A DNA stretch of 64,000 nucleotides from Octopus vulgaris. Lineage: Eukaryota. Location: NCBI GenBank assembly GCA_951406725.2, contig OX597817.1:164548001-164612000 (forward strand), read 5' to 3'. The notes beneath the pieces were generated by a model, which saw only the letters and a program-made list of their open reading frames with translations, did not search any database and was not told where the DNA came from. This document shows positions 11,294 to 39,548 of this stretch, piece by piece. Position 1 is the stretch's first letter, and the number at the start of each line of letters is the position of its first letter. A program made the translations under genes and the position numbers.

Positions 11294-11335
<42 letters not shown>

Positions 11336-14113: not shown

Positions 14114-14203
14114 ATGGCAGATGTGGCAGCAGAACAGGCCAGCAGTGGCCACCAGCCAGAGAAAAGGAAGCGTGGACGACCTCGAAAACTTAAGACAGAT
14201 CAG
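14114..14203 (+). CDS. HMGA: HMGA-like AT-hook protein, coding exon 1 (MADVAAEQASSGHQPEKRKRGRPRKLKTDQ; AT-hook 1)
   Basis: ATG at 14114 in gaaATGG context; canonical AT-hook KRKRGRPRK; donor CAG|gtcaga at 14204, phase 0; resembles exon 1 of vertebrate HMGA2 (KRGRGRPRK). Confidence 0.85.
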
Positions 14204-17200: not shown

Positions 17201-17235
17201 ACAAAGACACATAAATATATACATATTTATATATC

Positions 17236-17266
<31 letters not shown>

Positions 17267-18380: not shown

Positions 18381-20786
18381 CATCATCATCATCATCATTT
18401 AGCGTCCGTTTTCCATGCTAGCATGGGTTGGACGGTTCAACTGTGGTCTGTGAAGCCAGAAGGCTTCATCAGGCCCAGTCAGATCTGGCAGTGTTTCTAC
18501 GGCTGGATGCCCTTCCAAACGCCAACCACTCCGTGAGTGTAGTGGGTGCTTTTTACGTGCCACCCGCACAGGTGCCAGACAGAGCTGGCAAACGGCCACG
18601 AATGGATGGTGCTTTTACGTGCCACCGGCGAAGCTGGCAACGGACACGAACGGATGGTGCTTTTACGTACCACCAGCACGGAGGCCAGGCGAGGCTGGCT
18701 ACGGACACGAGCGGATGGTGCTTTTACGTGCCACTGGCACGAGGGCCAGGCAAGGCTGGCAACTGACACGAACGGATGGTGCTTTTACGTGCCACCGGCA
18801 CGGGGGCCAGGCGTGGCTGGTTACGGACATGAGCGGATGGTGCTTTTGGCAACGGATACGAACGGATGGTGCTTTTACGTGCCACCGGCATGGAGGCCAG
18901 ATGGGGCGGCGCCGGCAATGACTACGATCGGATGGTTCGCTTAACCACAGCTGCAATTTCCACTGATGTTGATCGACCTCAATTTTGGTTCTGCTTTCTG
19001 ATATCTGATTTGATTTTGTTTGATTTTGATTTTGACTGTTCTCACTGGTCTTGCTGGGTCTTCTCACGCACAGCATACTTCCATAGGTCTCGGTCTCTAG
19101 TCATTTCCTTGGTGAGACCTAAAGTTCGAAGGTCGTGCTTCACCACCTCGTCCCAGGTTTTCGTGGGTCTACCTCTTCCACAGGTCCCCTCAACTGCCAG
19201 GGTGTGGCACTTTTTCACACACCTATCTTCATCCATTCTCGCCACATGACCATACCAGCGCAATCGTCTCTCTTGCACACAACAACTGATGCTTCTTAGG
19301 TCCAACTTTTCTCTCAAGGTACTTACACTCTGTTGATTATGAACACTGACATTACGCATCCAACGGAGCATACTAGCTTCATTTCTTGCGAGCTTACGCA
19401 AATCCTCAGCAGTCACAGCCCAAGTTTCACTACCATGTAGCATGGCTGTACGTACACATGCATCATACAGTCTGCCTTTTACTTTGAGCGAGAGGCCTTT
19501 TGTCACCAGCAGGGGTAAGAGCTCTCTAAACTTTGCCCAGGCTATTCTTACTTTAGCAGTTACACTTTTAGCACACCTGCCCTGACTTGGTCACCTAGGT
19601 AGCGGAAGCTATCAACTACTTCTAGTTTTTCTCCCTGGAACGTGGTAGAAGTTGGTCTCTGCATATTTTCCGAGTTTATTGCTCCTGAGCATCTGCCACA
19701 GATAAAAACTATTTTCCTAGTTAGTCTTCCTTTGACATTACTACATCTCTTATGTGTCCATAGCTTACATTTGGTGCATCTTATAGAGTTTCTACCTACG
19801 CCTTTTCTACAGATCGAGCAGGGCCATCTACCTGAAGGCGTTTGTGATTGGTCTACCTTCCTACTTATTAGGACTTTGGTTTTGGCTAGGTTGATTCTAA
19901 GGCCCTTTGATTCTAAACCTTGCTTCCACACCTGAAACTTCTCCTCCAGTTCTGATAGTGACTCAGCAATTAGAGCAAGGTCATCAGCATAGAGGAGCTC
20001 CCTAGGGCATCCAGTCTTGAATTCCTCCGTTATTGCCTGGAGGACTATGATAAATAGGAGGGGACTGAGGACTGAACCTTGGTGGACCCCAACCTCTACC
20101 CTGAATTCTTCACTGAACTCGATGCCAACCTTCACTTTACTAGCAGCGTCTCTGTACATGGCTTGTACAGCTCTCACTAACCATTCATCTATCCCTAGTT
20201 TCCTCATTGACCACCAGATAAGGGATCGGGGGACCCTGTCGAAGGCTTTCTCCATATCAACAAAAGCCAGGTATAGGGGTTTGTCTTTGGCTAGGTATTT
20301 CTCCTGCAGCTGTCTTACCAGGAAAATAGCATCAGTAGTACTTTTCCTTGGCACGAACCCAAACTGCATCTGATCTAATCTAACTCTCTCTCTAATTAGT
20401 TGGGCTATAACCCTCTCCGTAACCTTCATTACCTGATCCAGCACCTTGATACCCCTGTAGTTATTTGTATCTAGGGCGTCACCTTTACCTTTGTAGCAGT
20501 TGACTATTATGCTGCTACACCAGTCATTGGGTATGACTCCTTCGTGTATCACCTGGTTAACTATACGGGTGACTAGGCTATAGCCGACACTACCAGATAT
20601 TTTGAGCATCTCTGCAGTGATTCCTGATGGGCCTGGGGCTTTCCCTGTTTTCATGCTTGTAATTGCCTTAACTACTAAGGAGCTGTCAACTCGGATTGCT
20701 GGTCCCTCTGTTGGGTCAACATTTGGCAGACTCTCTTTATCCCATTCATTTTCCTCATTCAGCAACCTTTCATAGTGGCGTCTCCA
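18381..20786 (-). mobile_element. 5'-truncated RTE-clade LINE: RT domain, PHD-type zinc finger, C-terminus, repeat-containing 3'UTR and (ATG)n tail
   Basis: ORF 19560-20828 has RT motifs (KAPGPSGI, NYRGI, QFGF, FVDMEKAFD, GVHQGSVLSP, YADD, FRYLG). After a frameshift near 19580 it continues into ORF 19042-19506 (RLRWYGHV, GRPTKTW, DRDLWK). Tail is (CAT)n on + at 18381. Confidence 0.95.
18541..18940 (-). repeat. ~61-bp tandem repeat (about 7 units) in the RTE 3'UTR
   Basis: Recurring core cggatggtgcttttacgtgccaccggca at ~18601, 18649, 18710, 18771, 18832 and 18861. Confidence 0.9.
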
Positions 20787-21440
20787 CTTGTGGGCAGTAA
20801 AGAAATAAGAAGCTTGCTTCCCAACCACATGGTTCTGAGTTCAGTCCCACTGTGTAGCACCTTGGGCCAACCAAAGCCTTGTGAGTGGATTTGGTAGACA
20901 GAAAATTAAAAGAAGCCTGTTGTGTATATATGTATATCTGTGTGTGTGCATTTATTTCCTCGTAACTTAGCGGTTCAGCATGGCTGCAGTCAAATGACTG
21001 AAGCAAAAGATTAAGATATATAATCAAAAATAGCACTTAACTCCTGTGATAGGAGTTGTACATATTTAAGAACACTTTGACTCAGCCCTACATTACTCAG
21101 TTTCAGAGGTGGTGATGAGTGACTACGGCATCAGATGTATGGATCAGAGTAAGGTCAATATAAGGGTGGTTTCGAAGTGAGAATATTTGGTAATTTCATT
21201 TATTAGTTCTTACTTAAGCCCTTTGCTCCCTAATCGAACATAATCCATTGACAACTTTTCTCCCTTATTCTTGACTTAGCGGTCTTTTCTGCTTCTCTTA
21301 TGTTGGATCCCTGCTTTTCAGCTCTGCCATGTACGAGAATGATGTATGTTGTTGTTTAACCCAAGGTTAATTTTGATTGATTAGATCTATAATGGAAAGC
21401 ATTCCAGCCAGCCAGCCAGCTAGGACCATTGCATATTTAA

Positions 21441-21659
21441 CCCTCTAGCATTCTGATTAATTTATCAAATGTAATGTTTATGTATCCATATTTTAAAAAA
21501 TTAATCACATATTATCTTTTAGCTTCAAGATTTTGAAGATGTAATCATTTAATTTTAGAATGACATTGTAGGGTAGGTGTGAGAGACTGGATCTGGCCAG
21601 TTTGAACATAAAACAGGTAGACCATTTGGGCCGAATATGGTCGGTAAAATGTTAAAAGG
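21441..21659. mobile_element. piggyBac-type MITE, family P2
   Basis: TTAA|CCCT...AAGG|TTAA ends; homologues at ~23985-24236, ~31035-32142, 52960-53400 and ~53712-54250. Confidence 0.7.
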
Positions 21660-22329
21660 TTAAGGGGTGTCTCAAACTAAATTATCCAATGTCAGGTTTG
21701 ACTTAATGGAGATTGGCTGCTATTTCTACCAGGTATAGTAATCTGGTTAGTTTTGAATTATCATTGATTCTTCTGTAACTTTGCTCTTTTTTCTTCTTAG
21801 TATGGGAAGTAGTCCTTATTAACCTGGTGTCTATCCTTTGACCTGTTCAGAATAGGAGGCCTAACCAGCAGATTGTGCTCTGCTAGCATAGCTCCCAAGG
21901 TTATTGAAGCACACAAGCTATCACACCTCAAGAAGGAGTGGATCATATGGTTGATATGTCCGTTCTGGTCACATACATAGTTTGATAAAAAAAAAGTATA
22001 ACAAATATTTGTATTTATGCTTTCACTTAATAGAGAAGACAGTGGAGTGGTACTAGTCAGTTGGCAGACTAGGATTTGACAACTTAGCAGCATCACCCAG
22101 TGGTGGGTGGAATACAAGTTGGTCCATGTGGCAAGGTAACCGGCCTTTTAGTGTCAGGTTACATACCACATGGTGTGTCATGGATAACTGTGTGTGGTGT
22201 ATTTGTAGCTGGGTACTGGTAGGCCATATTGAGGGTACACAGAAAAGAAATAATTTCACTGAAGGCAAGCAGAGATTGTTTTCCCTGTAACTGTGCATCT
22301 GCCAGCTAGGCTTAAGGTGGTTTTTCAGA

Positions 22330-22840
22330 GGCATCAGTGGCCAATGGTTTGAAATTCATAAATAGGATCTATCTTTGGTGATGGTATTATAATAGATCAG
22401 TTTTCCAATTGATTGATTCTGCTGGTTGTTGCAGTATATGTTGTGAGTAAAGCAAGGTTCTGTCAAGGATGCTGCGTGTGATGTTGGGAAAGACATTTCT
22501 TTGACTCTTGAGTCTCTAGATAAAGTACGAGAGGGAGATGGTGATTTTCTTGTCTTTACACCTGAATGAGTGCATATGTTGTGTAAATCATTCTTTGAAA
22601 TCATTGGTTGTTATGCTTACTCATGTAGTACCTTATGATGCCATCAGATTGCATGAAGGTAGCTCTGTGGACCATAGCCTTTGAGAGGCAAGTACTCCTT
22701 GTGGGCAGTTGCCTTGGCAGTTACAGGCTGGACATTGTGTGGCTGTGTTTCCATTATAGTGTGTAATGTTGGAAGTGATTTTATCTAAGCATGAATAACT
22801 AACCTAAACATTATGGGCATTAAAGAGTTTATGAAAATTG
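22330..22840 (-). pseudogene. Penelope-like element remnant: RT/EN linker and GIY-YIG endonuclease
   Basis: Minus-strand translation NFHKLFNAHNV*VSYSCLDKITSNITHYN...PACNCQGNCP..CLSKAMVHRA...DFKE*FTQHMHSF matches the Penelope pattern HKIFNRNTVKVSYSC...CNC..CP..CL..VVY.A...FK.R..H..SF. Confidence 0.75.
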
Positions 22841-22845
22841 TAATC

Positions 22846-22930
22846 TAAGTAGGGGCTAAACTACAATAACTTATCTGAGTAGGGGCTGAACTACCATAAC
22901 TTATCTAAATAGGGGCTAAACTACCATGAC
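22846..22930. repeat. 30-bp tandem repeat, ~3 copies
   Basis: taagtaggggctaaactacaataacttatc units at 22846, 22876 and 22906, at the 5' break of the Penelope remnant. Confidence 0.85.
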
Positions 22931-23476
22931 ATATTAAGCAACTACCTACCACAAAGAGCTCCTTTACAAAACATTCCCTACATAAAAAAAATAAGATTAC
23001 ATGAACAGGAGAACTACTAAAGAATTTATGGGGACAGTGAAGACTAACAGAGATAACAAAGAAAGAATGAAAATACACTAGATAAACAACAAGCATTCCA
23101 CCTTCAGTTGCCTAAGCAAATATTTTCATGTTTTTTATACCAAATGGTAGCACCATTCTGTCTGACAGTGTCAGCTATGTTCAGATATTATTTTAATACT
23201 GTTTAGGATTACACAAGTATAATTTGTACATGAGACAAAACAAAAATTAAAAACGAAACATAAACACCATACCTGGATGAAAAATGTAGACAGCAGAAAA
23301 AACACTAGGCCCCAGGATGCCATAGTACAAGTGACTTACACAGCAGAAATGGAAGTAATGATAGAGGAGAAAGAGCCAGCCCACAAGTAGAAGGGAGAAC
23401 AGTGGGAGAGAAACAGCACTTGTCTATCAAAGAGAAAGAAGGAAGGAGAATAACTGACAATAACACATCTAATTAA

Positions 23477-23696
23477 CCCATTCATTACTGTATTTATTTT
23501 GAGATGCTCTGTGTTTCTTTCAATTACTTTAAATATAACAAAGAATTTAGTAAAATAACTCAGTTATCATTCAGCTAGTGTTAGGAACATAAATTGTGAC
23601 TAAGGTTTGGTGGAAGATTTTAATTAAAATCTTATGAAAACAAGACATTTATACTCAGAGTCAGAGCCAGTTTCAGCCAGGTTAGTAACGAATGAG
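23477..23696. mobile_element. piggyBac-type MITE, family P1
   Basis: TTAA flanks, CCC-type TIR; homologous to 50769-51354, 59022-59230 and 62090-62332. Confidence 0.8.
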
Positions 23697-24239
23697 TTAA
23701 CGGTGTGTGGGGACTCTTTGTAGCATCCAACAAGCACAAAAGTAAATATAACAATGGTAATTTGTACCAACTTCTCCATGGTGTACCTTAAACTATATTT
23801 AATAATTCTGTAAATTTAAATATACTGTAACTCATTTTGTCTGCATATCTTTTTTATTATATTCCAATTTCATATATTTGTCATTAACCACAAAATTTAA
23901 TTTGCAACTCAGATGCATGCTTGAAATAGCGCCAAATTTCTTCAAAATATCTCTGTGCATACCTGGGTCACAATTGCAGTATTTAATCCTTTAACATTTA
24001 AACCGGCCATATCCAGCCCAAATGATCTACCTGTTTTATGTTCAAACTCTATCAAATGCAATGATCATTTATCTATATTGTTTGGAATTAATCATGCATT
24101 ATCTTGTAGCTTTGAGATTTCAATGAAGTGATTGTTTACTTCTTAGAATGACATTGTAGGGAAGGTGTGAGGGACTGACTGTGAGCAGTTTGAACATAAA
24201 AAGTTTGAATATTTTGGCTGGTTATGGCTAGTTAAAATA

Positions 24240-24805
24240 TTGGGTTGTCCGGAAAGTTCGTGCCAATTTATAGTAGCTTACTTTTCGACGTATTTTAGAA
24301 CATGGTTGAGTCCATAAAATAGGATTTGACTACACCTCCATTTAGAGCACAGTTTAAGCTATATTTTCATGGAAGAAGTTTTATGTTCCTATAACCTGTA
24401 TTAATTCTGTAACCCTTTAAATTGGAAGATAAGAAAGTTCATTTTTGGCACTTGATGCTTTGGGAACCAGACAAAAATTGCTGCAGCTTGGCTGGGATGT
24501 GTTACCCCACCCTCCATATTCACCATATATTGCTCCTTTGGATTTCCACTTATTCAGGTCTCTGCAGAATAGTCTAAATGGTAAAAATTTCATTTCCTTG
24601 GATGACATAAAAAGATATCTTGATGAATTCCTTGCCATGAAACCACCTCAATTCTGGGAAGAGGGTATTTTCAAGTTAAAGGAAAGATAGAAACGCATTG
24701 TGCAACAAAATGGTTCATATTTGGTTGATTAAAAATGTAATGGCCAGTATTTATCGGCCTTTTTCTTTCCTTTAAAAATCGGCACGAACTTTCAGGACAA
24801 CCCAA
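24240..24805 (+). mobile_element. Internally deleted mariner element with transposase C-terminus
   Basis: TIRs ttgggttgtccggaaagttcgtgcc / ggcacgaactttcaggacaacccaa, TA TSD; ORF LGWDVLPHPPYSPYIAPLDFHLFRSLQNSL...FWEEGIFKL (DD34D mariner YSPDLAP motif). Confidence 0.92.
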
Positions 24806-25480
24806 TACAAAAGGATTAAGGCCTTTCCCACTCAGGTTTTGTCGGTTTTGAATTGTCATCGATTTTCTGTAACCTTTCTTTTTTCTAGGTAGATGTGTTG
24901 GCCCTATGTAAAACCAATTTTTACCTCTGGGAAAAGGTGGTCCATATTAGTTTAGCCTTTATCCTTTGACCTGTCCAGCATGGTAGGCCCTACCAGGAGC
25001 TTGTGCTCCACTGGCATGGCTCAGGGTTACTGAAGCACACATGCCACCACGTTGCAAAAAGGACTGGACCTTGTGAAATTTACTACTGTATCTTTGTTTA
25101 ATCATTTGATATATCACATGATACACCTTTTCTATAAGCACATCAAAGTTTTAAGTTATTCTTCTATACATAGATTATCTCTCTGGAAAAAAAATGCTGC
25201 AACTCAATCTATCTAGAATGCAACTAGATGCATAAGGCATTTCTGCTACTTTAAAATCAAAAACATTAATTGTAGTAGAAGTATTAGTTACCATCAAATA
25301 CCCCAACCATAGTTGCTGAACCTAACCTATCATTTTTGTATACGGGCATTATAAGCATTGCTGTGTTAGTTCAGAAGATAGCGGCAAATTCTGAATTAAA
25401 ACCTTCCACCAAACCTTAGTCAAAATTTATGTTCCTAACACTAGCTTAATGATAACTAAGTTATTTTACTAAGTTCTTTG

Positions 25481-25892
25481 GGATCTTTTTGGTTTGAACG
25501 GCAGTTTTTTCTAGCGGTGTCATATGAAATTGTCACCCATAATTATGACCCTAGAATCGATCTATTGCATTTCAATCTCTTTTAGGGTTAGGGGTGGGGG
25601 AAGGGTATCTTTTTTTCTTCACAAATGTAAATAAACCCAATCTGTTTCTTAAATGAGGGACATATTCATACGGCACAGAATGCTTTTTAACTCAATAGAC
25701 ATCACTGATTGGTTGAAATTGCAGAAATTGAAGAAAAAAAAAACAGCAAATATCTTACAAACTATAGAATTTTCTCAATAAAGCCAAGAGAAAAAGATGT
25801 TTTATAAACACATTCTACCAGTATACGAAGTTTAACATTTTTTAGTTACCTAGAAATTATGTTAAAAACTGCCGTTCAAACCGAAAAGATCC
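25481..25892. mobile_element. Merlin-like MITE, family GGATC (copy 3), inserted into a P1 piggyBac-type MITE
   Basis: TIRs as above; TSD gttctttg/attctttg; P1 sequence on both sides; internal ttagggttaggggtgggg. Confidence 0.88.
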
Positions 25893-26136
25893 ATTCTTTG
25901 TTATATTTAAAATCAATTGAAAAGAACACTGAGCATTACAACAGAAATATGGTAACAAAAGGGTTAAACAAGTGAGTTGTTGATTACTGCCATTTGCTGC
26001 TGTAATATTTAAATAATTCCTCTTTTTAGCATCAGGGCCACCTTAGCTTTCTTCTAAATCCCTAGGTTAAATTTTACAAGTAAGTATTGTAAATGAAGTT
26101 TTGTGCATAGAATGTTTGTTGTTGTTGGACTCTCGT

Positions 26137-26515
26137 TCATCATCATCATCATCATTATCATCGTTTAACGTTCACTTTCCATGCTAGCATGGGTTGGACG
26201 ATTTGACTGAGGACTGGTGAACCAGATGGCTGCACCAGGCTCCAATCTTGATCTGGCAGAGTTTCTACAGCTGGATGCCCTTCCTAACACCAACCACTCC
26301 GAGAGTGTAGTGAAGCTTTTACATGCCACCGGCATGAGGGCCAGTCACGCAGTACTGGCAATGGCCATGCACAAATGGTGTTTCCTATGTGCCACCTGCA
26401 CAGGAGCCAGCCCAGCGGCACTGGCAATGACCTCGCTCGAATGTTTTTTCACGTACCGCCGGCACAAGTGCCAGTAAGGCGATGCTGGTAATGATCACAC
26501 TCGAATGGTGCTTGT
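26137..26515 (-). mobile_element. RTE 3'-end stub (3'UTR repeats plus ATG tail)
   Basis: (CAT)n-gtttaacg..ttccatgctagcatgggttggacg, homologous to 18381-18600. Other minus-strand stubs at ~27610-27997, 29252-29425, 38983-39150, 41120-41480 and 63472-63945. Confidence 0.88.
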
Positions 26516-26569
26516 TTCAACAAATGAGGTTCCAACAAGATACAACTGCACAGTGTTTTTGGTTCAAAG

Positions 26570-26777
26570 ATTTGTTGCATCCTTTCCTGTAGGAATTCCA
26601 GCCTAGCTGGTACTTGCAGATTCTGTTGCAAACATTGTAGTGGTAGTCTTCATCATTTGTGGGTTGATTTGACTTGACTTTATGCTCTGCTCTTTCCTCC
26701 TTCAGGGTGTTGATCCTGGCTGCCTCAAACTTGGAGATGGCTTGGTAGCAAGAACTTCTCCACTGAGCTCTGTTTAG
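26570..26777 (-). pseudogene. C-terminal fragment of a second RTE-type LINE (decayed C2H2 finger)
   Basis: Minus translation LNRAQWRSSCYQAISKFEAARINTLKEERAEHK...NVCNRICKYQLGWNSYRKGC fits the RTE C-terminal pattern DRxxWR..FE..R...CxRxCxSRIGLxSH. Confidence 0.65.
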
Positions 26778-26789
26778 TCATTCCAAATA

Positions 26790-27167
26790 TTTACATTGAG
26801 TGAAGTACATCAACATCAAAATGAAAATCAAATGGAAATTGTAGTTGTGATACCCGTGCTGGTGGCACGTAAAAGGCACCATCTGAATGTGGCTGATGCT
26901 AGTGCCACCTTGACTGGCTTCCGTAGCGGTGGCATGTAAAAAGCACCAACCGATAGTGGCCATTGCCAGCCTCCTCTGGCTCCTGTGCCGGTGGCACGTA
27001 AAAAGCATCCACTACACTCGCGGAGTGGTTGGCGTTAGGAAGGGCATCCAGCTGTAGAAACACTGCCAGATCAGACTGGTGCCTGGTGCAGCCTCCTGGC
27101 TTCCCAGACCCCAGTCGAACCACCCATGATAGCATGGAAAGCAGACGTTACACAATGATGATGATGA
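26790..27167 (+). mobile_element. RTE 3'-end stub, plus orientation
   Basis: Reverse complement of the 26137 stub type. Other plus-strand stubs at ~37815-37975, 39190-39352, 44968-45110, 50190-50485 and 55870-56330. Confidence 0.88.
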
Positions 27168-28719
27168 TCTGTGACAGAATCCAAATCTCCAGTGTATCAA
27201 TATTGATAGAATTTTAGTTAGAGACATCCTATATTTTGAGTTCTTATGCAGTCTAGACATAAAAAAAACATTTCAAATAAAAATTAAATATATTTAAAAT
27301 GCTCTTTTACTTGGTTCACTCATAAAGCCAAAGCAATTTTGAGATCCCCCACCTGAACAAAAATAAATATTGGTGAATATTTATTTTAGCATTTAATATG
27401 TTTGGTATATTTTTTTGATTTGGAAGAGTGACACTTAGGACATAAAAATGTATATTTACTAGTATAAAACCCACATCATCACTTGGCTGTGTGGTTAGGG
27501 CATAAATATGTGATACTTATATGTGATGCCTTGGGCAAGTCACTTCTGTAGCTCTGGGCTGACCAAAGCCTTGTGAGTAGATATGGTAGACAGAAACTAA
27601 TAGAAGCCCATCATCATCATCATCGTTTAACGTCCGCTTTCCATGCTAGCATGGGTTGGACGATTTGACTGAGGACTGGCGAACCAGATGGCTGCACCAG
27701 GCTCCAATCTTGATCTGGCAGAGTTTCTATGGTTGGATGTCCTTCCTAACGCCAACCACTCCGAGAGTGTAGTGGGTGCTTTTATGTGTCACCAGCACGA
27801 GGGCCAGTCGGGTGGTACTGGCAACGGCCATGCTCAAATGGTGTTTTTTACGTTCAACCTGCACAGGAGCCAGTCCAGCGGTACTGGCAACAACCTCGCT
27901 TGAATGTTTTTTCACATGCCACCAGCACAAGTGCCAGTAAGGTGACACTGGTAACGATCACGCTCGAATGGTGCTTTTTACGTGCCACAGGCACGGAAAA
28001 TACGTAAAAAAAAATTGTGTATGTTAGCTGTCCACTGAAATGAATGAGGCATGAACAGTGTGAAAGAGAATATTTTGGTCATCTGTTGTAGAACCTGAAA
28101 CTAGCGTACACCAAAAATCAAGTTCTTTAATGTTATTACTGAATGTTAAACACACTAACTTCGAAGTTTTTTACGAAGAATATAAATAGCTGATCAAATT
28201 AAGTTTAATGTAACTTACTTTCTGCACAGATAAAATTATGCAAAATATTAGAAAAGTGTGAAATTTGATTGAAATTATTGCCCTCATCATATATGTATAT
28301 ATGTGTATATGTGTGTTTGTGTCTCCATATCTGGACATAATGGTAGTTAGAAACAAGTGACTCTGTGAAAGCATATCTGGTTATGGGGAAATATTAACTT
28401 GCTTGGAAACATGTGGAAGTTGGTGACAGGAATGATTTCTAGCCATGAAAAAAAAACTGCCTCAATAAATCCCTTTTGATCCATGCAAGTATGGAAAAGT
28501 GGATGTTAACACAATTATGGAAATAATGACAGTGACAGCAGCAGCAGCAATGATGGTGGTGGTGGTGGTGGTGGTGGTGGTGGTGGTGGTGGTGGGGAGG
28601 AAGAGGAAGAGGGGTTTGTTTTAATCCTTCATAGCAAAATAGGTTGTGTTGAAAGATTGATGCCTTCTTTGAGAGGATGTCGAATCAAAAAAAAAAACTT
28701 TCAGAAATTCTATTTCTAA

Positions 28720-29250
28720 AATCAATCAGAACTGGGGAAGAATATTTGTCTTGTTCTTTGACTTCTAAAGTAGCCATGCATTCATTCCAGTTAACATTAA
28801 AGAAGTAAATGTTTCTGTTGCATCCTTGTTCTGTAACTAAGCATTCTCTGATCCAATTAATCCCTTCACCCCCCTCAAAGAAACTAATGTTTCTCAGCAA
28901 CTGTTTGGACATAGTCATGTTTTTACTGAGAAAGTCATTTTGTTGAAGCCAATAGTTGGAGAGTCATTTGTTACCAAGTCGAGCACAATATCGTCATTGT
29001 ATCATTATTACAAGTTTAGTGATTGTTGAAGCAATCTCAATGATTCCTTTTGTTGTCTTTTTCAATGTGACACTTTGGTAAAAGGACATTTTGAAAGCCT
29101 ATTTTCTCAACTAGTTCCTTCTGCACAAATACTAATTACAGATTGGCAGATGAGATCTAAGCCTTCAAATACATTTCTTTTATTGATCAGCCTTATCACA
29201 GTTTGTCTTCTGCTACCATAATTGGTTTCAACAGTTGTGAAGCTTTTCCC
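28720..29250 (-). pseudogene. Possible highly decayed Helitron PIF1-helicase remnant
   Basis: Only scattered minus-strand peptides resemble the helicase (..SQLLK..GSRRQTVI.., LRLGND, WIRE); many stops and frameshifts. Confidence 0.3.
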
Positions 29251-29423
29251 TTCATCATCATCATCATCATCATCATTGTTTAACGTCTGTTTTCCGTGCT
29301 AGCACGGGTTGGACGGTTCAACCGGGGTTTGGGAAGCCAGGAGGCTGCACCAGGCTCCAGTCTGATCTGGCAGTATTTCTACAGCTGGATGCCTAACGCC
29401 AACCACTCTGAGTGTAGTAGGTG

Positions 29424-29460
<37 letters not shown>

Positions 29461-32400
29461 TTAATTTTTCTTAAAGAAACACTCAGTGCCTCTTCCCCTA
29501 CCTCACCCACCCATCACCTACCAGCCTTCAAAGAGCTAAAATCTCCCAATCTTTCACTTTTGTCTGATGTTTCCCACTTGCGTAGAATTGTACTGAAATA
29601 GCAGACATAAAAAATATCAGCCCACCACCACAAAATCTAGCATGCTAGAAACAACAGGTAAACAACATTATTTCTGAAGAAACTTCCTTGCTTACCAAAA
29701 AGCTAAAAGTGAAACATTGGGAGTGTGTAGCTTTTTGGAAGTGGTGAGCTGATGCGTTAAATTCTTAGATTCATACTCTGTTTGTTCTCCATGGATTACC
29801 AAGAATAAAAATTTGAAAAAAGTGAAAAATGAATTTGGTGTGGAGAGGGAGAAAATTAAAATATTGAGGACGTGTTTTGTGGGTGAAATCCTAATCTCCT
29901 TCATCACAAACATAGGAATTGGAAGAAATTTAGGTAAAAAATGAAGTGGGGGGCAGAAATGTCACCTCGGACATGCTAGAAAGAAGAGGTAAAGGACAGG
30001 ATTTCTGGGGAAACTTCCTTTTAAGTTTATATCGAAGATCAGGTTAATACACTCATCTCAAACAAAAATTACACTATAGAAAAAGAACATTTAAATTGGA
30101 TTTGAGCTGTAAATTTGCGCATGCACAGTGCATGAATTAACATAATTCGCACAAAAGTTTTACCTAGAGTGTGTGTATGCATGTGTCAAAGGAAGTTATT
30201 TTATGGGATTCTCTTGTTTGAAGAAGCAAAGTTGTCGACTCGACATATATGGGACAATATAGCTGTTCATTAATTTCTGTAAAATTGTTTTAATTTCTGT
30301 ATGCTTTGAAGAGAGCAGAAATTGAAAGAGAGGATAAAGTGAAAAGGCAACATTTGCTTTGGAGAGAAGAAAGTAAAAGAGAGGAGAAAGTGTAAGATGT
30401 ATATGTATATGAAATGGACATGTGTGTGTGTGAGAGAGAAAGAGAGAGTGAGTGAGTGAGTGAAGGTGTGTGTTGTGATGTATGATTTTTTTTGCATGTG
30501 TGTGTAAGTGGCACTCACTCGCTCTCTCTCTCACACACACATTAGCTTACGTATGTAAATTATTGAAAAATCAGAGGCTGCTGTGGTTGTCTGAGAAAAG
30601 ATCCCTTTCTAGGTGTAGAGTGTTAAAAACTCAGACAAAATCTTCCCAGAGGTAACTGTGAGAATGACAGGGACATGTTTCATCATTTTTACAGTTTGCC
30701 AATACCACGCGTCTCTAGAAGTAGCTAGCCTAGCAGCCTCTTTGCAAAACCAATGAATTGTTCATTTGCTGTTTCTAAATACTTCCGACTGACCAAGATG
30801 ATTACATCTTAGAAGTGACCCGAGTGCATGGTATTGACTAGCCACAAAAACAGTGAAATACGCATTTGTCACTTTATGGACGCTTCTGGGATGATTTCAT
30901 TTTGTCTAGCTCTTATGTATATTGTGTTTATAACACACTGTGTCTCTAAAGGTATCTTTCTTGAGATGATCACTGCAGCCTCTGACTTTTCAATAATATA
31001 CATACATTAAGAATGTCACAAAGATAAAGATTTTAACCCTTTAGCATTTAAACCAGCCACATCAGACCCAAATCACTCAACCATGGTGGTGGTTGAATAT
31101 ATATATATTCTTAAGTCCACCATTTCGTCAATTGCAGCAGCTTCCAAGCTTCACCACTAATTCAGTTCTCAACTAAATTGCAAACTGTTAACAGTTTTAA
31201 AGAGGACACCTCCTTGGCTACACTTTGGCATAAATAGTTTGAGATTTGGTTCAGTAGAAAAAAAAGTTACATCAAAATATCTGCAACCTCAAGAGGGGCA
31301 GTAAGGCAGATATTCATCTTCAGTTAACATAAACTTTTTAAATTTTAAATTAAAAGTATACCTTTCTTAGGCTTAAATGATAGAAAAATGTATGAGGAAT
31401 TCAGAATCGCTAGTCGCATTAAACAAAAGGTTAGTAGAAAAAGAGTTATGTAGTAAAATGTTGCGAAATTTCATGTCATTAAGTAAGGAAATAAGGGAGT
31501 AACGCTTCAGCAATAAGGATAAAGAATATATTTCTAAAATGAATATTTACTTTCTAAGGTGGTGAGCTGGCAGAAACATTAGCGTGCCAGGCGAAATGCT
31601 TAGCGGTATTTCGTCTGTCCTTACGTTTTTGAGTTTGAATTTCACCGAGGTCGACTTTGATGTACAGATTATTTAATTAAATTTTTTTTAACTAAACACT
31701 TTCAATCTTCCGATATTGGTAGAATATGTCACATAGAACTTACAAATTCGCTGAACAGTTTTGTATAATAAATTTAAAAGATGAGAACTGTAAAGAGTGA
31801 TAAATTAGAACTGGCATTCTTTGCTGCAATATTTTTAGTAAAAAGTTTCTTATTTTTTACTATACTTTTAATGGTGTAATAATTTGTCCTGTAGGTTTAC
31901 AATCTTAAGAATATGACTTTTCATGCTTGCATTTTTCCATGTAATATTATACATGCTTTATGTTCAAACAGGGCAGACGTGGTCTTTCATACCTATCCTG
32001 TTATGTAATTCAGAAAACTAAACACTCACATCATAAAAATATCAAAATTACAACATTAATGCATGATTAATTCGAAACATCAAAACAATGTGAATTAATA
32101 AGCATTACATTTGATAAAGTAATCTGAATGCTAAAGGGTTAATCTAGAGCTGCTTCGCATTCATAATTTGGATTTTGTTTATGCTGGAACATAAACAAGA
32201 TCTTTTGGATCTTTTTTTCTATTTTTTCAGTTGTGAGTTTATAGATTTAGGCATATTTAGAGTTTCTTCATCTTTTACTTTTACTTTCATTCCTTTCTTC
32301 ACAAAATCACATTGAGTTCTTATTTGTCCTCTTTTCAAACAATTCATCCAATGGTCAGATGAATTGCCTTCAGAATCATTAGAATCATCATTTGTTAAGT

Positions 32401-32875
32401 TACTCTTTTTCTACTTTGTGAATGTGGAATACAAAAAAAGCTGTGAGTATATTTGATAGATGGAAACTGAAAGAAGCCCATCATGTATGTGTGTGTGTGT
32501 ATTGTGTGTTGTCTTGATATTATGTGGTAGTTGCAAACAAGCATTGCTCATTTCCAATCTTCTGTGCAAAACATGTTAGGCCATGGAGAAATGTTACCTT
32601 ACTTGGAAGGTGAAGATTGCTGACAGGATGAGCAACCAGGCATAGAAAATCTGCCTCGACAAATTTTATATGACCCATGCAAGCATGGAAAAGTGGACAT
32701 TAAAGTAATGAGGAGGTGGTGAAGGTGGTAGTGGTGGAAAGAAGAGTGCAATGTCAACAGTATTAAAGTTTTTTTTGTCCCAAAACCTCATGTGTATTCA
32801 AATTTTTCTTAAAAAGAAAAAAAAAACATTATCATACAAGATCAGTTCCTTCTGACTCATCACAGTATTTCATGA

Positions 32876-33167
32876 TGTTCTTGAGCAAAACACTTCATTT
32901 CACATTGCTCCAATTCACTCAGCTAGCAAAAATGAGTCATCCTCTGACAGACCAGTGTCCCATTCAGACAGGGAATATATATGCCATGAAACCAGGAAAT
33001 CAGCCCTTGTGACTCGGTATAACTCAAGAAGGTAACTTTACTTTTACTATTACTAGTATACTACTATTACTGGCACTACTTAAATACAGAGGTTCCGTTT
33101 AAAAACAGAAGTCCCTATGCATCTACGTAATGATGTTTTTACAGTGCACACTTGTTATGGTTAGTTT
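32876..33167. repeat. Inverted duplication of 33974-34265
   Basis: ~292-bp near-identical reverse complement covering part of a SINE, the TSD and the right end of the MITE. Confidence 0.9.
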
Positions 33168-33462
33168 ATTGCCCTTTTCTTTGGCCCACAGAGTACTTGA
33201 TTCAGATGCACATTTGTTGTCATGTCTTGGATCTATGTTAAAGAAAGCCGATAATTTCCTTTGTGACATAAGGTCCTTAAATATCACTCACATAACATTA
33301 ACAATGGTGCAGATATTGCCAATTCCACGTATGAGAATTTAGACCCTCACAACTGTTCTAGGCATAACAACCCTGATGGAGCCATAACTAAATATTTGAA
33401 AGTAACAATGAATGTAAAACTACTATTAACAATACCAGTGTATATTTGTATACTAGTAATAG

Positions 33463-34069
33463 GGTACTGCTTAAATACAGAGGTCCCTTAATGGTACTAC
33501 TTACATACAGAGGTCCCAACTGTGTGGACGTGTAATGACACCTTAAAACTAACTCCCAAAACTAACCCTAACCCTGACTCTAAAACTTAACCCTAAAAAT
33601 TAACACCGTAAACTAACCCTAAAAACTAACCTTAAAAATTAACCCTAAAAACTAACCCTGGAAACTAACCCTAAAACTAACTCCCAAAACTAACCTTAAC
33701 CCTGACCCTAAAACCTAACCCTAAAAATTAACCCTGTAAACTAACCCTAAAAACTAACCCTAAGAACTAATCCTAACCCTGACCCTAAAAACTAACCCTG
33801 AAAACTAACCCTAAAAACTAACCCTAAAACTAACTCCCAAAACTAACCTTAACCCTGACCCTAAAACCTAACCCTAAAAATTAACCCTGTAAACTAACCT
33901 TAAAACTAACCCTAAAAACTAACCCTGACCCTAAGAACTAACCCTGAAAACTAACCCAGAAAACTAACCCTAAAAACTAACCGTAATGAGTGTGCACTGT
34001 AAAAACATCATTACGTAGATGCATCAGGACTTCTGTATTTAAACGGAACCTCTGTATTTAAGTAGTGCC
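33463..34069. mobile_element. Merlin-like MITE (GGYAC ends) carrying a ~440-bp telomere-like repeat array
   Basis: TIRs ggtactgcttaaatacagagg / cctctgtatttaagtagtgcc; perfect 8-bp TSD agtaatag (33455-33462 and 34070-34077). Confidence 0.85.
33541..33985. repeat. Degenerate telomere-like array (CCCTAA / AAAACTAACCCT units) with higher-order repetition
   Basis: Direct reading; block aactcccaaaactaaccttaaccctgaccctaaaacctaacc recurs at ~33551, 33680 and 33832. Confidence 0.92.
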
Positions 34070-34097
34070 AGTAATAGTAGTATACTAGTAATAGTAA

Positions 34098-34350
34098 AAG
34101 TAAAGATACCATCTTGAGTTATACCGAGTCACAAGGGCTGATTTCCTGGTTTCATGGCATATATATTCCCTGTCTGAATGAGACACTAGTCTGTCGCAGG
34201 ATGACTCATTTTTGCTAGTTGAGTGGAATGGAGCAATGTGATATGAAGTGTTTTGCTCAGGAACACAATGCGTCACCCAGTCCAAGAATTGAAACTACAA
34301 CCTTACGATCATGAGTCTAACACCCTAACCACTAGACCACATGCTTCCAC
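34098..34350 (-). mobile_element. tRNA-derived SINE family C
   Basis: Minus head gtggaagcatgtggtctagtggttagggtg...; homologues at 34575-34830 (-) and 53779-54080 (+). Confidence 0.8.
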
Positions 34351-34574
34351 TGTACTAGTAATACAAACTATCATACATTTAGCACATATGCCATTAATAC
34401 CAATGATAATAATTTGAGTCCCTGTATCATTAATAATAATAATTATGGTATGAATTGTTCTAACTATGCCAACTGTCTCCATTGTAATAACGATGATGGT
34501 AATTAATTGATTCTTATCAAAGAATTAATAATCATACTAACTATACTAACCTTGGCACAGCTAATAATAAATAT

Positions 34575-34830
34575 AAAATAAATGTTCCTTCTTGAGCCAT
34601 GCCAGGCTCATAAGGGCTGGTTTCCCGGTTTCAGTGGTGTAGAAATTCCCCACCTGGACGGGACGCCTGTCCATCGCAAGATTACTCATTTTTGCCAGCT
34701 GAGTGGACTGGAGCAACGTGAAATGAAGTGTTTTGCTCAAGAACACAACGCATTGCCTGGTCCAGGAATCGAAACCACAACCTTACGATCATGCGTTCAA
34801 CACCCTAACCACTAAGCCACACACCTCCAC
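34575..34830 (-). mobile_element. tRNA-derived SINE family C
   Basis: Minus head gtggaggtgtgtggcttagtggttagggtg..gtggtttcgattcc; TSD-like acagctaataat on both sides. Confidence 0.82.
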
Positions 34831-35003
34831 ATACAGCTAATAATGCATCACCCATATTCTGTGAGGAGAAGACATGCAGTTTCAGAGTACATAGTAGTCT
34901 CTTTGAGGAACAATTGCTTACATTATAATGTTTATAAATGTACCTTTACCACCACATTGACCCACTCTGCCAGAATTTTTATTGGTGGAACATTTGAACT
35001 GTT

Positions 35004-35390
35004 TACTCTTTTACTTGTTTCAGTCATTTGACTGTGGCCATGCTGGAGCACCGCCTTTAATTGAGCAACTCGACCCCAGGACTTATTCTTTTTTGTAAGC
35101 CTAGTACTTATTCTATCGGTCACTTTTGCCGAACCGCTAAGTTACGGAGATGTTGGGGGGACAAACACACACACAACCATACACGCACACACACACACAA
35201 CCATACACACAAACACACATATATATACGATAGGCTTCTTTCAGTTTCCATCTACCAAATCGACTCACAAGGCTTTGGTTGCCCAAGGCTATAGTAGAAG
35301 ACACTTGCCCAAGGTGCCATACAGTGGGACTGAACCCGGAACCATGTGGTTGGTAAGCAAGCTACTTACCACACAGCCACTCCTGTGCCT
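35004..35390 (-). mobile_element. SINE family A
   Basis: Reverse complement of 10431-10842. Further copies at ~36873-37790, 37977-38760, 43750-44184 (-) and 57447-57893 (-). Confidence 0.88.
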
Positions 35391-37052
35391 GTTTCTCCGG
35401 TATTGCTAGAAAACAATTTACCTCCCTGACCACCTACATCCACTACTTCAAAGTTGAGAGTATTCCATACGCGAGAAACCAATAACCTTGTAATTCATGT
35501 TGCTGTGAGTCCTTAAATATATTACATGACTGAATGAGGCCTCCCTCTTTAAATGCTTCTCTGATGTAATTATGTGCAGACATAAATACTACAAAACGTT
35601 CTCTTGTTACCATAAATTTTTCTGTTCTACTAATTTGCCCTTCACTATAATACTTCCACCTTAATAACTGTACTCCTGTACCACTGAATTAGCCACACTA
35701 AGGGTTTTCTCATCTTTCCCCTTCTCCTCCCCCTCTTACCAATACATCTTGTATCTCCTACTCCCACTATCTCATTTTACTAACCTGTGTTGCCGCTGAT
35801 ACTCCACTAGTGTCTTTATAATTTTTTTTTTTTCTTATCTCCACGACTGACCTTGATTTATTGTATACTATGCACCTGCTCTATGATCGCGCCTACTACA
35901 ATAATCTTTTATCTCCCACTATTAATCTTTCCTTCCACAGACACTGGTCTCCCTTTGAGCTAGTCTACTTCCCTTGTTTTTATTGCCTCTTATATTTCTC
36001 TTTTTTTTTTTTCTTGATTCTATTAACTGATATTTTTCATTACTAATTCTACCTGAAGCAACTCCACCAATCTCTTCCCTTCCAATCTTTTCCTCAATGT
36101 TCCTGTCTTTACTATCCCACTCAACCCCTTGTATTTAGTTTCCCATTGACCCTATTTATAAAAACTACACTATTTGTTGCCAGAGTTTTCTGATGAGACT
36201 AACTGGAGTCCTCATCTTGAATCTTTTAAAATCCATGTTAATTCATAACCTACTATATTATTGGACCTTATTACATAATATATAGTCGTGGCACCAGTCA
36301 TTGTTTATTTGAAACAGCTGTAAAGATAAGACTTACATCATTCATTTGTTTGTTTACACAACTTTCCATGTAAATACATTTTTGTGCCTACTTTTGTTTA
36401 TGTTTTTAAATTCTTCTGTACCTTCTTGACAAAGATTGGTTTCTTATAGCCAACGTCTTACGCTGGTGTAAGCTGCCCTGAATGAAAGAATTAAAGTTCA
36501 AGTTTTGGATTTATCTGAACGCTACTTAGGGACTTTCTGTACCAAGCTTACTTTAGCATTTGCCCTTCCAAGGTCAACAACAATTTTAGGCATTACTGAC
36601 ATTGATATACTAACTTACTATACCCACCACCATAAGAGTACAAAAATTATGGGTGACTATGTGTCTAGGTTATGAACCAATATTTACATCTAATTCATTT
36701 TTAAGCACTTTCAGAATCTCTGATCATTATTAAGTATCTCTTTGCTGTAGGTGTACATAATACCAGACTGGACTCAAAATAAGGATCTTATTTCTGAAGT
36801 AATGGTAGTAACATTCTTATATATGATGTCTCTGTTGTATTATAATAACAATGTTAGCTGCTGAAGCTAAAGAGAGGTGTGGCTGTGTGGTAAGAAGCTT
36901 GCTTCTCAACCACATAGTTCCGGGTTCAGTCCCACTGCGTGGCACCTTGGGCAAGTGTCTTCTACTATAACCTTAGGCTGACCAAAGCCTCGTGGGTGGA
37001 TTTGGTTGACGTAAATTGAAAGAAGCTCATTGTGTGTATGTATATATATATA

Positions 37053-37101
<49 letters not shown>

Positions 37102-37379
37102 ACGTATAATAAATCTTGTGTGTACAGCTTGATGTATGACTTGTTGATTTTAGAACTCCACATAGAATGTCATCATCCAGGCCTGCTTCCAGGCCACAGC
37201 ATCACATCACTACACACACGTGTGCGTGCAAACACCTGCTCTCTCTCTGACTGTCTGTCTGTCTCTCTTCCCTCTTTCATTTTGACAACTGCCTTCTCTA
37301 TATGTATCTTTTTCTAACCCAACCACACACGCACACATAAAATGTTTCATTGTTAAATCTAACACACACACCCATGCAC

Positions 37380-37421
<42 letters not shown>

Positions 37422-37529
37422 CTCTCTCCCTTTCTCACTCACTTTTGCATTTCTCTTCCAAACCTATTTTATTAAACCTACACATACACACAAATGCAAA
37501 ATGTCCACACACACACACATGTATATATA

Positions 37530-37565
<36 letters not shown>

Positions 37566-38104
37566 TGTGTGTGTCTGTTTGTCCCCCTACCATTGTTTGA
37601 CAACCGATGCTGGTATGATTATGTCCTGGTAACTTAGCAGGTCAGCAAAAGACCGACAGAATAAGTGCTGGGCTTACTAAGAATAAGTCCTGGGGTTGAT
37701 TTCTTCAACTAAACCCTTTAAGGCAGTGCTCCAGCATGGCTACAGTCAAATGACTGAAACAAGTAAAAGAATAAAAGAATTAAAAAATTAAAAAATAACA
37801 AAAGATTTAAATTACTGAGTGAGTGGTTGGCGTTAGGAAGGGCATCCAGCTGTAGAAACATTGCCAGATAAGACTGGAGCCTGGTGCAGCCTTCTGGCTT
37901 CCCAGATCCCCGGTCGAACCGTCCAACCCATGCTGGCATGGAGAATGGATGTTAAACAACAATGATGATGATGATGGCATGACTGTGTGGTAAGAAATTT
38001 GCTTCCCACCCACATGGTTTCAGGTTCACTCCCACTGCATGGAACCTTGGGCTGACCGAAGCCTTGTGAATGGATTTGGTAGACAGAAATTGAAAGAATA
38101 ATGC

Positions 38105-38517
38105 TGCGAGCTGGCAGAAACGTTAGCACGCCGGGTGAAATGCTTAGCGGTATTTCGTCTGCCGTTACGTTGTGAGTTCAAATTCCGCCGAGGTCGACTT
38201 TGCCTTTCATCCTTTTGGGGTCGATAAATTAAGTACCAGTTAAGCACTGGGGTCGATATAATCGACTTAATACCTATGTCTGTCCATGTTTGTCCCCTCT
38301 ATGTTCAGCCCCTTGTGGGTAATAAAGAAATAGGTATTTCGTCTGCCGCTACGTTCTGAGTTCAAATTCCGCCGAAGTCGACTTTGCCTTTCATCCTTTC
38401 GGGGTTGATTAAATATGTACCATTTATGCACTGGAGTCAATACAATCGACTCGATCCCTTTGTCTGTCCTTGTTTGTCCCCTCTGTGTATAGCCCCTTGT
38501 GGGTAGTAAGGAAATAA
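38105..38517 (+). mobile_element. Dimeric SINE family B inserted into a SINE A
   Basis: Two tandem units joined at aaagaaata|ggtatttcgtctgcc; TSD gaaattgaaagaa. Confidence 0.85.
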
Positions 38518-39151
38518 GAAATTGAAAGAAGTGCATGTGTGTGTGTTTTTGTGTCTCTGTCTCCCACTATTGTCTGACATCTGGTGTTAGTATGTTTATG
38601 TCCCCATAACTTAGCAGTTCGGCAAAAGAGACTGATAGAATACCAGGCTTAATATATAAAAAATAAGTACTGAGGTTGATTTATTCAACTAAATTTTCTT
38701 CAAGATAGTGTTCCAGCATGGCCACAGTCTAAAGCAGAAACCAGTAAAGGATAAAAGATTTAGATATATTTTACATGATTCAGTTACTGCCTTGACTTTA
38801 TTTTGAGGTATTGGAGTTCTTCAAATGCTGTAGTCCTCGTTGCAACTCTTGTGTGAATCTTGATGTCTAGGCCTCTTTTTTTAATATGGAACTTTATGAC
38901 TAGGTTCTTGTCAAGTTAGTTTTGGAAATCAAATGATATATGATGATGACAACTGCGACAATGATGGATATATATATATATATCATCATCGTTTAACGTC
39001 CGTTTTCCATGCTGGAATGGGTTGGACGGTTTGACTGGGATCTGGGAAGCCAGGATGCTGCACCAAGCTCCAGTCTGATCTGGCAGCTGAATGCCCTTCC
39101 TAACGCCAACCACTCCATGAGTGTAGTGGGTGCTTTTTACATGCCACTGGC

Positions 39152-39182
<31 letters not shown>

Positions 39183-39479
39183 AGGGCATGATGTTAGGAA
39201 GGGCATCCAGCTGTAGAAATTTTGCCAGATCAGATTGAGCCTGGTGCAGCCTTCTGACTCACCAGTCCTCAGTCACATAGTCCAACCCATGCTGGCATGG
39301 GTTGGACGATGTGACTGGAAAGCAGATGTTAAACGATGAAGATAATGATGATGTCTAGAGAATGACTCTGTTTCTTGTTTTAAGATTGAACCAGATCTGA
39401 CTTGTTTCATAAAAATAAAGACTCCCCGACTTTTGTTGACGCTGTATTCTATAACATTGATTCTTTATGATATTTCCAG

Positions 39480-39548
39480 TCTGAAGAACCAAAACCGAAG
39501 AGAGCACGGGGTCGACCGAAAGGAAGTAAAAACAAGAAACCTTCTAAG
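39480..39548 (+). CDS. HMGA: HMGA-like protein, coding exon 2 ([23 protein letters not shown]; AT-hook 2)
   Basis: Not in the ORF track. Acceptor tatttccag| and donor AAG|gttggt; 69 nt, phase 0/0. Peptide closely matches the HMGA2 second hook [20 protein letters not shown] (recalled). Confidence 0.9.

What the first reader, a model, noticed from the sequence alone, without database searches (positions are those of the whole stretch)
33463..34069. DNA transposon that carries a ~440-bp telomere-like array as its cargo
Seen: TIRs, GG...CC ends and an exact 8-bp TSD (agtaatag) enclose a CCCTAA/AAAACTAACCCT array with higher-order structure. Known: GG termini with 8-9-bp TSDs characterise Merlin/IS1016 elements, and TTAGGG is the usual molluscan telomere repeat. 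Inference: this interstitial telomere-like sequence was delivered by transposition, not by chromosome fusion. It could recruit telomere-repeat-binding Myb proteins or form G-quadruplexes inside a gene.
Basis: partly seen in the sequence, partly recalled or inferred. Interest (0 to 1): 0.7.

Follow-up and report, generated by a model that had tools for sequence, protein, structure and literature searches.

The report
Mini-transposon with telomere-like repeat array
A small, gene-less DNA transposon in an intron of an octopus-like animal's gene contains about 34 copies of a 13-base unit that includes the telomere motif; this is probably a short motif of the transposon that multiplied, not a piece of captured telomere.

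Summary
The 607-bp element (33463-34069) is real: GG...CC ends, a 25-bp TIR (22/25) and an exact 8-bp TSD. It lies in the 25-kb intron after the first coding exon of an HMGA-like gene.

The array is not decayed telomere. It is a 13-bp minisatellite with 0 perfect TTAGGG dimers and three higher-order blocks.

(1) A 292-bp inverted duplication (17 mismatches) of the right TIR plus flank lies about 300 bp upstream, so the insertion is old. (2) Two more GG/8-bp-TSD families occur in the window. One shares the 12-mer TTTTAGGGTTAG, as does an autonomous Ptychodera Merlin family in a published supplement.

Best reading: a Merlin-type MITE whose internal telomere-like motif was amplified in tandem. 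Tandem repeats inside Merlins are known (32 of 70 Repbase entries). No second copy, empty site or transposase could be reached, so Merlin versus Mutator is open, as is whether the full array transposed. Fusion is disfavoured. The G4 case is weak; TRF binding is plausible (13 half-sites) but untested.

The parts
33455..33462 (+). Left 8-bp target site duplication; overlaps an 11-mer (33451-33461) that also flanks the neighbouring SINE-like repeat
33463..33487 (+). Left TIR, GG start, 22/25 to the right TIR
33493..33517 (+). Second, tandem copy of the TIR (30-bp period); likely extra transposase-binding site (inferred)
   Evidence: (D4)
33518..33540 (+). Left subterminal region; its 7-mer GTAATGA aligns with the inverted copy in the right end
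33541..33986 (+). 13-bp minisatellite (C-rich on +), 34.4 copies; three higher-order blocks of 128, 153 and 155 bp differing by 3.4-7.8%; 13 TRF-type half-sites on the minus strand
33987..34044 (-). Right subterminal region with a second, shorter copy of the TIR core
   Evidence: (D10, I6)
34045..34069 (-). Right TIR, CC end
34070..34077 (+). Right 8-bp target site duplication
34094..34352 (-). SINE-like interspersed repeat (label inferred and recalled; ARAGORN and Rfam gave no support) with an 11-bp TSD at 34083-34093 and 34353-34363; the element sits at its tail
32876..33167 (+). Inverted duplication of 33974-34265 (196 bp of flank plus 96 bp of element right end, including an orphan TIR at 33072-33096); 17 mismatches of 292, no indels, no TSD
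14204..39479 (+). Host intron, between the first two coding exons (14114-14203 and about 39480-39548) of an HMGA-like AT-hook gene whose last exon ends at 49275

Best explanation
A non-autonomous cut-and-paste MITE of Merlin type, now old and probably inert. Step 1 (inferred): it derives from an element whose subterminal region held one or two copies of a T-run + TAGGGTTAG motif. Step 2 (sequence shows the result; mechanism inferred): slippage and unequal exchange amplified a 13-bp unit around this motif, then duplicated roughly 130-150-bp blocks. Step 3 (shown by TIRs and TSD; enzyme inferred): a transposase supplied in trans inserted it at the tail of a SINE-like repeat in the intron, duplicating 8 bp. 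Step 4 (order shown; mechanism inferred): later a replication or repair template switch copied the right end plus flank in inverted orientation about 300 bp upstream; the copy stops about 10 bp into the array. How much of the array travelled with the element and how much grew in place is unresolved. The most likely function is none: neutral intronic junk that incidentally presents TRF-type half-sites.
For: TIR, TSD and their nulls. Period 13 dominates over period 6, with 0 hexamer dimers. De novo scan: of 173 non-independent GG..CC inverted pairs, 5 have an 8-bp TSD with at most 1 mismatch, 0 have a 7-bp TSD and 1 has a 9-bp TSD, so GG/8-bp elements recur here as three families. All 11 window copies of TTTTAGGGTTAG lie in such elements, 9 in the array and 2 in family B; 6 of 20000 dinucleotide shuffles of one B copy contain it. 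The same 12-mer occurs 40 times in the S2 Appendix of PMC8101967. It lies about 0.5 kb 5' of the ORF in 6 of the 7 distinct Ptychodera contigs listed with a DDE_Tnp_IS1595 domain, and 20 of the 21 ends shown for that family start with GG. 32 of 70 Repbase Merlins have tandem repeats (hand count). Merlins are abundant in octopus: 191 sequences in O. bimaculoides and 18 families in O. vulgaris.
Against: There is only one full copy; no other family member or empty orthologous site was reachable (0 hits, all prokaryotic or phage collections). No transposase links this TIR to Merlin. The shared 12-mer was picked after seeing the data, rests on three families, and family C (10885-11411) lacks it. 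Family B and the focal element share nothing but this motif, so convergence is possible. One of 4 B copies keeps only a single hexamer. Block divergence (3.4-7.8%) does not differ from the post-insertion duplication's 5.8% (Fisher p 0.36-0.66), so the timing of array growth is not shown. The TSD lies in low-complexity sequence with a 17-bp tandem duplication.
Confidence: 0.6

Rival explanations
1. One reading: the element captured real telomeric DNA (for example by telomerase action at a break inside the element) and spreads it as cargo; the 13-mer is a modified telomere tract.
For: Each canonical unit contains TTAGGGTTAG (11 copies). Short 6-bp units are interspersed. TTAGGG is the only telomere motif reported for a cephalopod. 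Transposition of telomeric repeats is listed as a possible ITS route in a review (PMC6410037). A 7-mer occurs on both sides of the array.
Against: 0 perfect dimers in 446 bp, only 23% of bases in exact hexamers, and lag 13 far above lag 6. The same 12-mer occurs singly in other elements. The flanking 7-mer is also a subterminal motif of the ends, and it differs in the inverted duplicate.
Confidence: 0.15
2. The element is a MITE of another superfamily (Mutator/MULE, less likely hAT or P), with the same story for the array.
For: [quoted passage not shown] O. vulgaris has 21 recently active Mutator and 21 hAT families against 2 Merlin. This element has duplicated TIR cores.
Against: Both ends are GG. 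The TIR is short (25 bp), whereas 12 of 14 Aedes MULE TIRs exceed 100 bp. All 5 intact GG..CC elements recovered here, plus foldback copy B4, have 8-bp TSDs rather than a mix of 8 and 9. The right TIR matches the Ptychodera Merlin end at 9 of the first 12 bases (by eye; weak).
Confidence: 0.2
3. The array grew entirely in place after a short MITE inserted, so it was never mobile cargo.
For: Blocks 2 and 3 are identical over their first 70 bp and differ by 3.4% overall, below the 5.8% of the post-insertion duplication.
Against: The difference is not significant (p=0.36), and array homogenisation confounds it. Block 1 differs from the others by 7-8%. The duplicate already includes the first array bases.
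Confidence: 0.3
4. Relic of a chromosome fusion, or a chance arrangement with no transposition.
For: Coleoid genomes were extensively reshuffled (PMC13282606 introduction). The TSD lies in low-complexity DNA.
Against: Single orientation with no head-to-head junction. The array is enclosed by TIRs and an 8-bp TSD with nulls of 0 of 100 shuffles and 8 of 63372 positions. It sits inside an intron whose exons are colinear with an Argonauta protein.
Confidence: 0.03

Closest known systems
Merlin/IS1016 superfamily, non-autonomous members with internal tandem repeats (Lopes et al. 2021, PMC8101967; Feschotte 2004 cited through it, not read)
   Same: GG termini, 8-bp TSD, TIR in the 24-462 bp range, subterminal and internal tandem repeats (32 of 70 Repbase entries), abundant in octopus.
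   Different: No transposase link was shown here. The array fills 73% of the element and is built on the telomere motif; 'telomer' occurs 0 times in that paper's main text.
Ptychodera flava Merlin family (S2 Appendix of PMC8101967)
   Same: GG-starting end; the same T-run + TAGGGTTAG 12-mer inside the element.
   Different: Autonomous, with the motif as a single hexamer dimer about 0.5 kb upstream of the ORF and no long array. Its TSD was not checked because only about 400 letters per record are readable.
Tandem-repeat-bearing MITE-like elements of molluscs (DTC84 and Pearl-like; PMC3879986, abstract only)
   Same: Non-autonomous cassette around an ordered array of repeat variants.
   Different: DTC84 has an AA putative TSD, up to five core repeats and a microsatellite; no telomere motif is mentioned in the abstract.
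Oxytricha telomere-bearing elements, TBE (PMC4724952, passages); Tetrahymena Tel-1 (recalled)
   Same: DNA transposons that carry their host's telomeric motif.
   Different: TBEs are Tc1/mariner elements with an ANT TSD and three ORFs, and the telomeric repeat forms the very tip of the TIR. Here the motif is internal and amplified.
Short interstitial telomeric sequences (PMC6410037, passages)
   Same: Telomere motif at an internal chromosomal site, associated with mobile elements.
   Different: s-ITSs are runs of 2-25 TTAGGG hexamers; this array has no hexamer dimer and is bounded by TIRs and a TSD.

Membership tests
Merlin superfamily | Terminal 5'-GG on both TIRs | tested here: met
Merlin superfamily | 8- or 9-bp TSD | tested here: met
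   Exact 8 bp, one copy only, low-complexity context
Merlin superfamily | TIR of 24-462 bp | tested here: met
   25 bp, 22/25; range from PMC8101967
Merlin superfamily | Own or partner transposase with a DDE_Tnp_IS1595 domain | not testable with these tools
   None in 277 of 277 scanned window ORFs (277 of 341 stop-to-stop frames of 55 aa or more; 64 low-complexity frames dropped). No eukaryotic genome collection was available to find a partner.
Merlin superfamily | Multiple copies with different TSD sequences | not testable with these tools
   One full copy plus one duplicated end in 64 kb. Family B shows this (4 copies, 4 different 8-bp TSDs) but is a different family.
Mutator/MULE non-autonomous element | 8-9-bp TSD | tested here: met
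Mutator/MULE non-autonomous element | Usually long TIRs (over 100 bp) with subterminal repeats | tested here: inconclusive
   The TIR is 25 bp, with patchy similarity to about 60-76 bp and a duplicated core; 2 of 14 Aedes families have TIRs under 60 bp.
Mutator/MULE non-autonomous element | MULE-type transposase partner | not testable with these tools
   As for Merlin
Interstitial telomeric sequence (s-ITS) | Run of tandem TTAGGG hexamers | tested here: not met
   0 dimers; 17 isolated hexamers
Telomere-fusion relic | Head-to-head inverted telomeric arrays | tested here: not met
   The array has a single orientation
TBE-type telomere-bearing transposon | Telomeric repeat at the TIR tip, 3-bp ANT TSD | tested here: not met

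The most novel reading that the evidence does not exclude
The T-run + TAGGGTTAG motif is a recurrent, functional cis-element of Merlin transposons from hemichordates to octopods. It recruits the host's TRF/shelterin, either to shield the transposon's cut ends from the DNA-damage response or to open its promoter. MITEs such as this one amplify it into arrays of more than a dozen TRF half-sites and scatter shelterin docking sites and fork-stalling fragile spots through genes; the inverted duplication that ends at the array's edge would be a scar of such stalling.
Probability: 0.12. Interest if true: 0.75.

Novelty: new variant of a known kind. Interest (0 to 1): 0.36.

Why it matters
Probably modest: one more tandem-repeat-carrying MITE in a genome full of them. 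The point of interest is that the same telomere-like 12-mer turns up in three otherwise unrelated GG-ended elements (two in this window, one in a hemichordate Merlin). I found no paper remarking on this (and the main text of PMC8101967). If it holds genome-wide, such elements would give an origin for dispersed telomere-probe signal that needs neither fusion nor telomerase, would caution against reading such signal as fusion scars in rearranged cephalopod karyotypes, and would make it directly testable whether transposons exploit shelterin.

Tried and rejected
Searches for other copies: the TIR pattern and an array pattern in genome contigs gave 0 loci each; blastn of the element against plasmids and phages gave no match. 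These collections are prokaryotic or phage, so the blanks say nothing about the animal genome. The metagenome and viral contig collections stayed unchecked.

Transposase in the window: none in 277 ORFs; the only above-cutoff Pfam hit was a LINE reverse transcriptase at 19563-20840. ARAGORN found 0 genes and Rfam gave only two sub-threshold matches.

Octopus repeat library: the one readable supplement of PMC13282606 holds counts, not sequences. Octopus Merlin entries in PMC8101967 are proteins without flanks, so they could not be linked to this TIR.

Rejected: (a) 33072-34069 as a larger element with near-perfect 96-bp TIRs, because its flanks are inverted copies rather than a direct TSD. (b) The inverted copy as a retrotransposed read-through of the SINE: there is no TSD (the longest shared word at its junctions is 5 bp) and it lies implausibly close. 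(c) The inverted copy as alternative transposition: its junctions are not at a TIR tip. (d) Strong G4: 0 canonical matches, 11 only when loops up to 12 nt are allowed, 15 of 30 loops are 10 nt, and 8 of 422 windows reach G4Hunter 1.2. (e) Dating array growth by block divergence: inconclusive.

No structure or complex prediction was run, since no protein belongs to the finding.

Full report
OBSERVATION. The element runs 33463-34069 (607 bp), begins GG and ends CC. Its 25-bp TIRs match at 22 positions. The TIR pattern occurs 4 times in the window and in 0 of 100 shuffles: both ends, a tandem second copy at 33493, and an orphan at 33072. The flanks share an exact 8-mer, the only length from 4 to 15 that matches. 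Chance 8-mer identity across a 607-bp gap is 8 of 63372 positions, and none of 44 cut points in the local empty-site sequence would mimic a TSD. One caveat: the site is low-complexity and holds a 17-bp tandem duplication, so the same 8-mer recurs at 34087.

THE ARRAY. 33541-33986 is 34.4 copies of a 13-bp unit. It has 17 exact TTAGGG hexamers covering 23% of its bases and no two in tandem. Identity is 0.71 at lag 13 and 0.47 at lag 6. Three higher-order blocks start at 33547, 33675 and 33828 and differ by 7.0, 3.4 and 7.8%. This is a minisatellite whose unit contains the telomere motif, not an eroded telomere tract.

HOST. Exons at 14114-14203, about 39480-39548 and up to 49275 match one Argonauta hians protein, with AT-hook motifs in the first two. 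The element therefore lies in a 25-kb intron of an HMGA-like gene in what is probably an octopod (inferred; the species was not determined). The gene is on the + strand, so the pre-mRNA carries the C-rich strand.

MISSED: LOCAL HISTORY. A 259-bp interspersed repeat (34094-34352, minus strand) has an 11-bp TSD, and a third copy of that 11-mer overlaps the element's left TSD. I call it SINE-like from its anatomy and from recall; two searches gave no database support. The element most likely inserted at its tail. A gap-free inverted duplication (32876-33167 of 33974-34265; 17 of 292 mismatches, 11 of 196 in flank and 6 of 96 in element) spans the element-flank junction, so it postdates the insertion. 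It has no TSD and its junctions are not at TIR tips, so a replication or repair template switch is the likeliest cause (inference). It ends about 10 bp into the array. With the calibration quoted in PMC13282606 (distance 0.09 for 25 My), 5.8% between two copies is very roughly 8 My, a minimum age. It is the longest of 142 inverted pairs of 40 bp or more within 3 kb in the window and folds as a long RNA stem.

MISSED: SISTER FAMILIES. A de novo scan found 173 non-independent GG..CC inverted pairs (at least 17 of 22 matches, 80-6000 bp apart). Five have an 8-bp TSD with at most one mismatch, none a 7-bp TSD and one a 9-bp TSD. The five are the focal element, family B (8099-8491, 9941-10344, 25481-25892) and family C (10885-11411). 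A fourth, foldback B copy (46031-46791) was missed by the scan because its right end is CT, but it has an exact 8-bp TSD. All 4 perfect TTAGGG dimers outside the array lie in 3 of the 4 B copies. All 11 window copies of TTTTAGGGTTAG lie in the array (9) or in family B (2), and 6 of 20000 shuffles of one B copy contain it. The motif was chosen after the fact, and B counts as one event. Family C carries a GTAT-type microsatellite instead. B and the focal element share only this motif.

RELATED SEQUENCE ELSEWHERE. No eukaryotic DNA collection was available, and the prokaryotic and phage searches were blank. In the supplement of Lopes et al. (PMC8101967) the same 12-mer occurs 40 times. The places I viewed (places 21-40 in full) are all one Ptychodera flava family. 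In 6 of the 7 distinct contigs listed with a DDE_Tnp_IS1595 ORF it lies about 0.5 kb upstream of that ORF, and 20 of the 21 ends shown start GG. Only about 400 letters per record are readable, so absence in other taxa is uninformative and that family's TSD is unchecked; two alignment files of the supplement were unreadable. The paper's S1 Table lists tandem repeats in 32 of 70 Repbase Merlins (hand count), and the paper proposes that Merlins spread proto-satellites.

MECHANISM. Shown: TIRs, TSD, array structure, intronic site, and that the duplication postdates the insertion. Inferred: mobilisation in trans by a Merlin-type transposase; origin of the array by tandem amplification of the element's own motif; template switching for the duplication. 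Unresolved: whether the full array moved with the element (block divergence against duplication divergence, p 0.36-0.66), and Merlin versus MULE. Aedes MULEs have 8-9-bp TSDs and subterminal repeats, and O. vulgaris has more recently active Mutator and hAT families than Merlin (21, 21 and 2).

FUNCTIONAL CLAIMS. Human TRF1 dimers need two YTAGGGTTR sites at any spacing (PMC3241663), and the array has 13. Molluscs are among the invertebrates with a single TRF-like gene, though telomere binding by invertebrate shelterin is unproven (PMC8653790). TTAGGG in octopods rests on one FISH study with poor metaphases. Binding is therefore plausible and untested. G4 support is weak, and the G-rich strand is the template strand, which does not favour co-transcriptional G4 (established knowledge). 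The most likely effect on the gene is none.

LITERATURE SEEN. PMC8101967: passages, section 10 part 1, S1 Table part 1, S2 Appendix part 22 and supplement searches. PMC13282606: first third of the text and one supplement search. PMC3879986: abstract. PMC6410037, PMC13218726, PMC6160780, PMC4724952, PMC3241663, PMC8653790, PMC6947457 and PMC5225508: passages only. Feschotte 2004 was not read; Tel-1 and hAT/P termini are recalled. Searches for a telomere motif in Merlins or MITEs listed no paper whose title or abstract start describes it. The library covers only open-access papers, and Repbase/Dfam entries were not searchable, so the family may already be catalogued.

VERDICT. A real element, mostly well observed, with 'telomere cargo' overstated. 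It is a variant of a known kind (tandem-repeat-bearing Merlin-type MITE). The one lead worth following is the recurrence of the motif across GG-ended families. Interest 0.36.

Noticed in passing
window 8099-8491, 9941-10344, 25481-25892, 46031-46791: Family B: a roughly 400-bp GG-ended MITE with 8-bp TSDs in 4 of 4 copies (2 exact, 2 with one mismatch); 3 of 4 carry a TTAGGG dimer; the last copy is a 761-bp foldback made of two arms.
   Followed up: yes
window 10885-11411: Family C: 527-bp GG..CC element with roughly 76-bp TIRs, an exact 8-bp TSD and an internal GTAT-type microsatellite with a 105-bp duplication; no telomere motif.
   Followed up: partly
window 14114-49275: HMGA-like gene: two small AT-hook exons joined, in the Argonauta homologue, to a roughly 520-codon last exon with no Pfam match and a predicted coiled-coil-like C-terminus (by eye); the database name 'dyrk2 kinase' looks like a low-complexity mislabel.
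   Followed up: partly
window 32876-33167 / 33974-34265: The 292-bp inverted pair would form a long dsRNA stem in the pre-mRNA, a candidate A-to-I editing substrate.
   Followed up: partly
window 19045-20840 (-): Broken LINE with a reverse transcriptase domain (E 1e-30) and a weak PHD-like zinc finger match in the same frame.
   Followed up: no
window 34569-34832 (-): A second SINE-like copy (78% to the first) with a 12-bp TSD at 34557-34568 and 34833-34844.
   Followed up: partly
window 23474-25967: Around the family B copy at 25481, short flank segments recur inverted at about 23511-23625, suggesting another local inverted rearrangement at a MITE.
   Followed up: no
window 40114-40940 and 52212-52715: Young tandem duplications: 275 bp x 3 (99%) and 207 bp x 2.4 (94%).
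   Followed up: no
PMC8101967 S1 Table: Aplysia Merlin-1_Aplcal has a period-6 array of 39.5 copies whose unit is not given; worth checking for the telomere motif.
   Followed up: no
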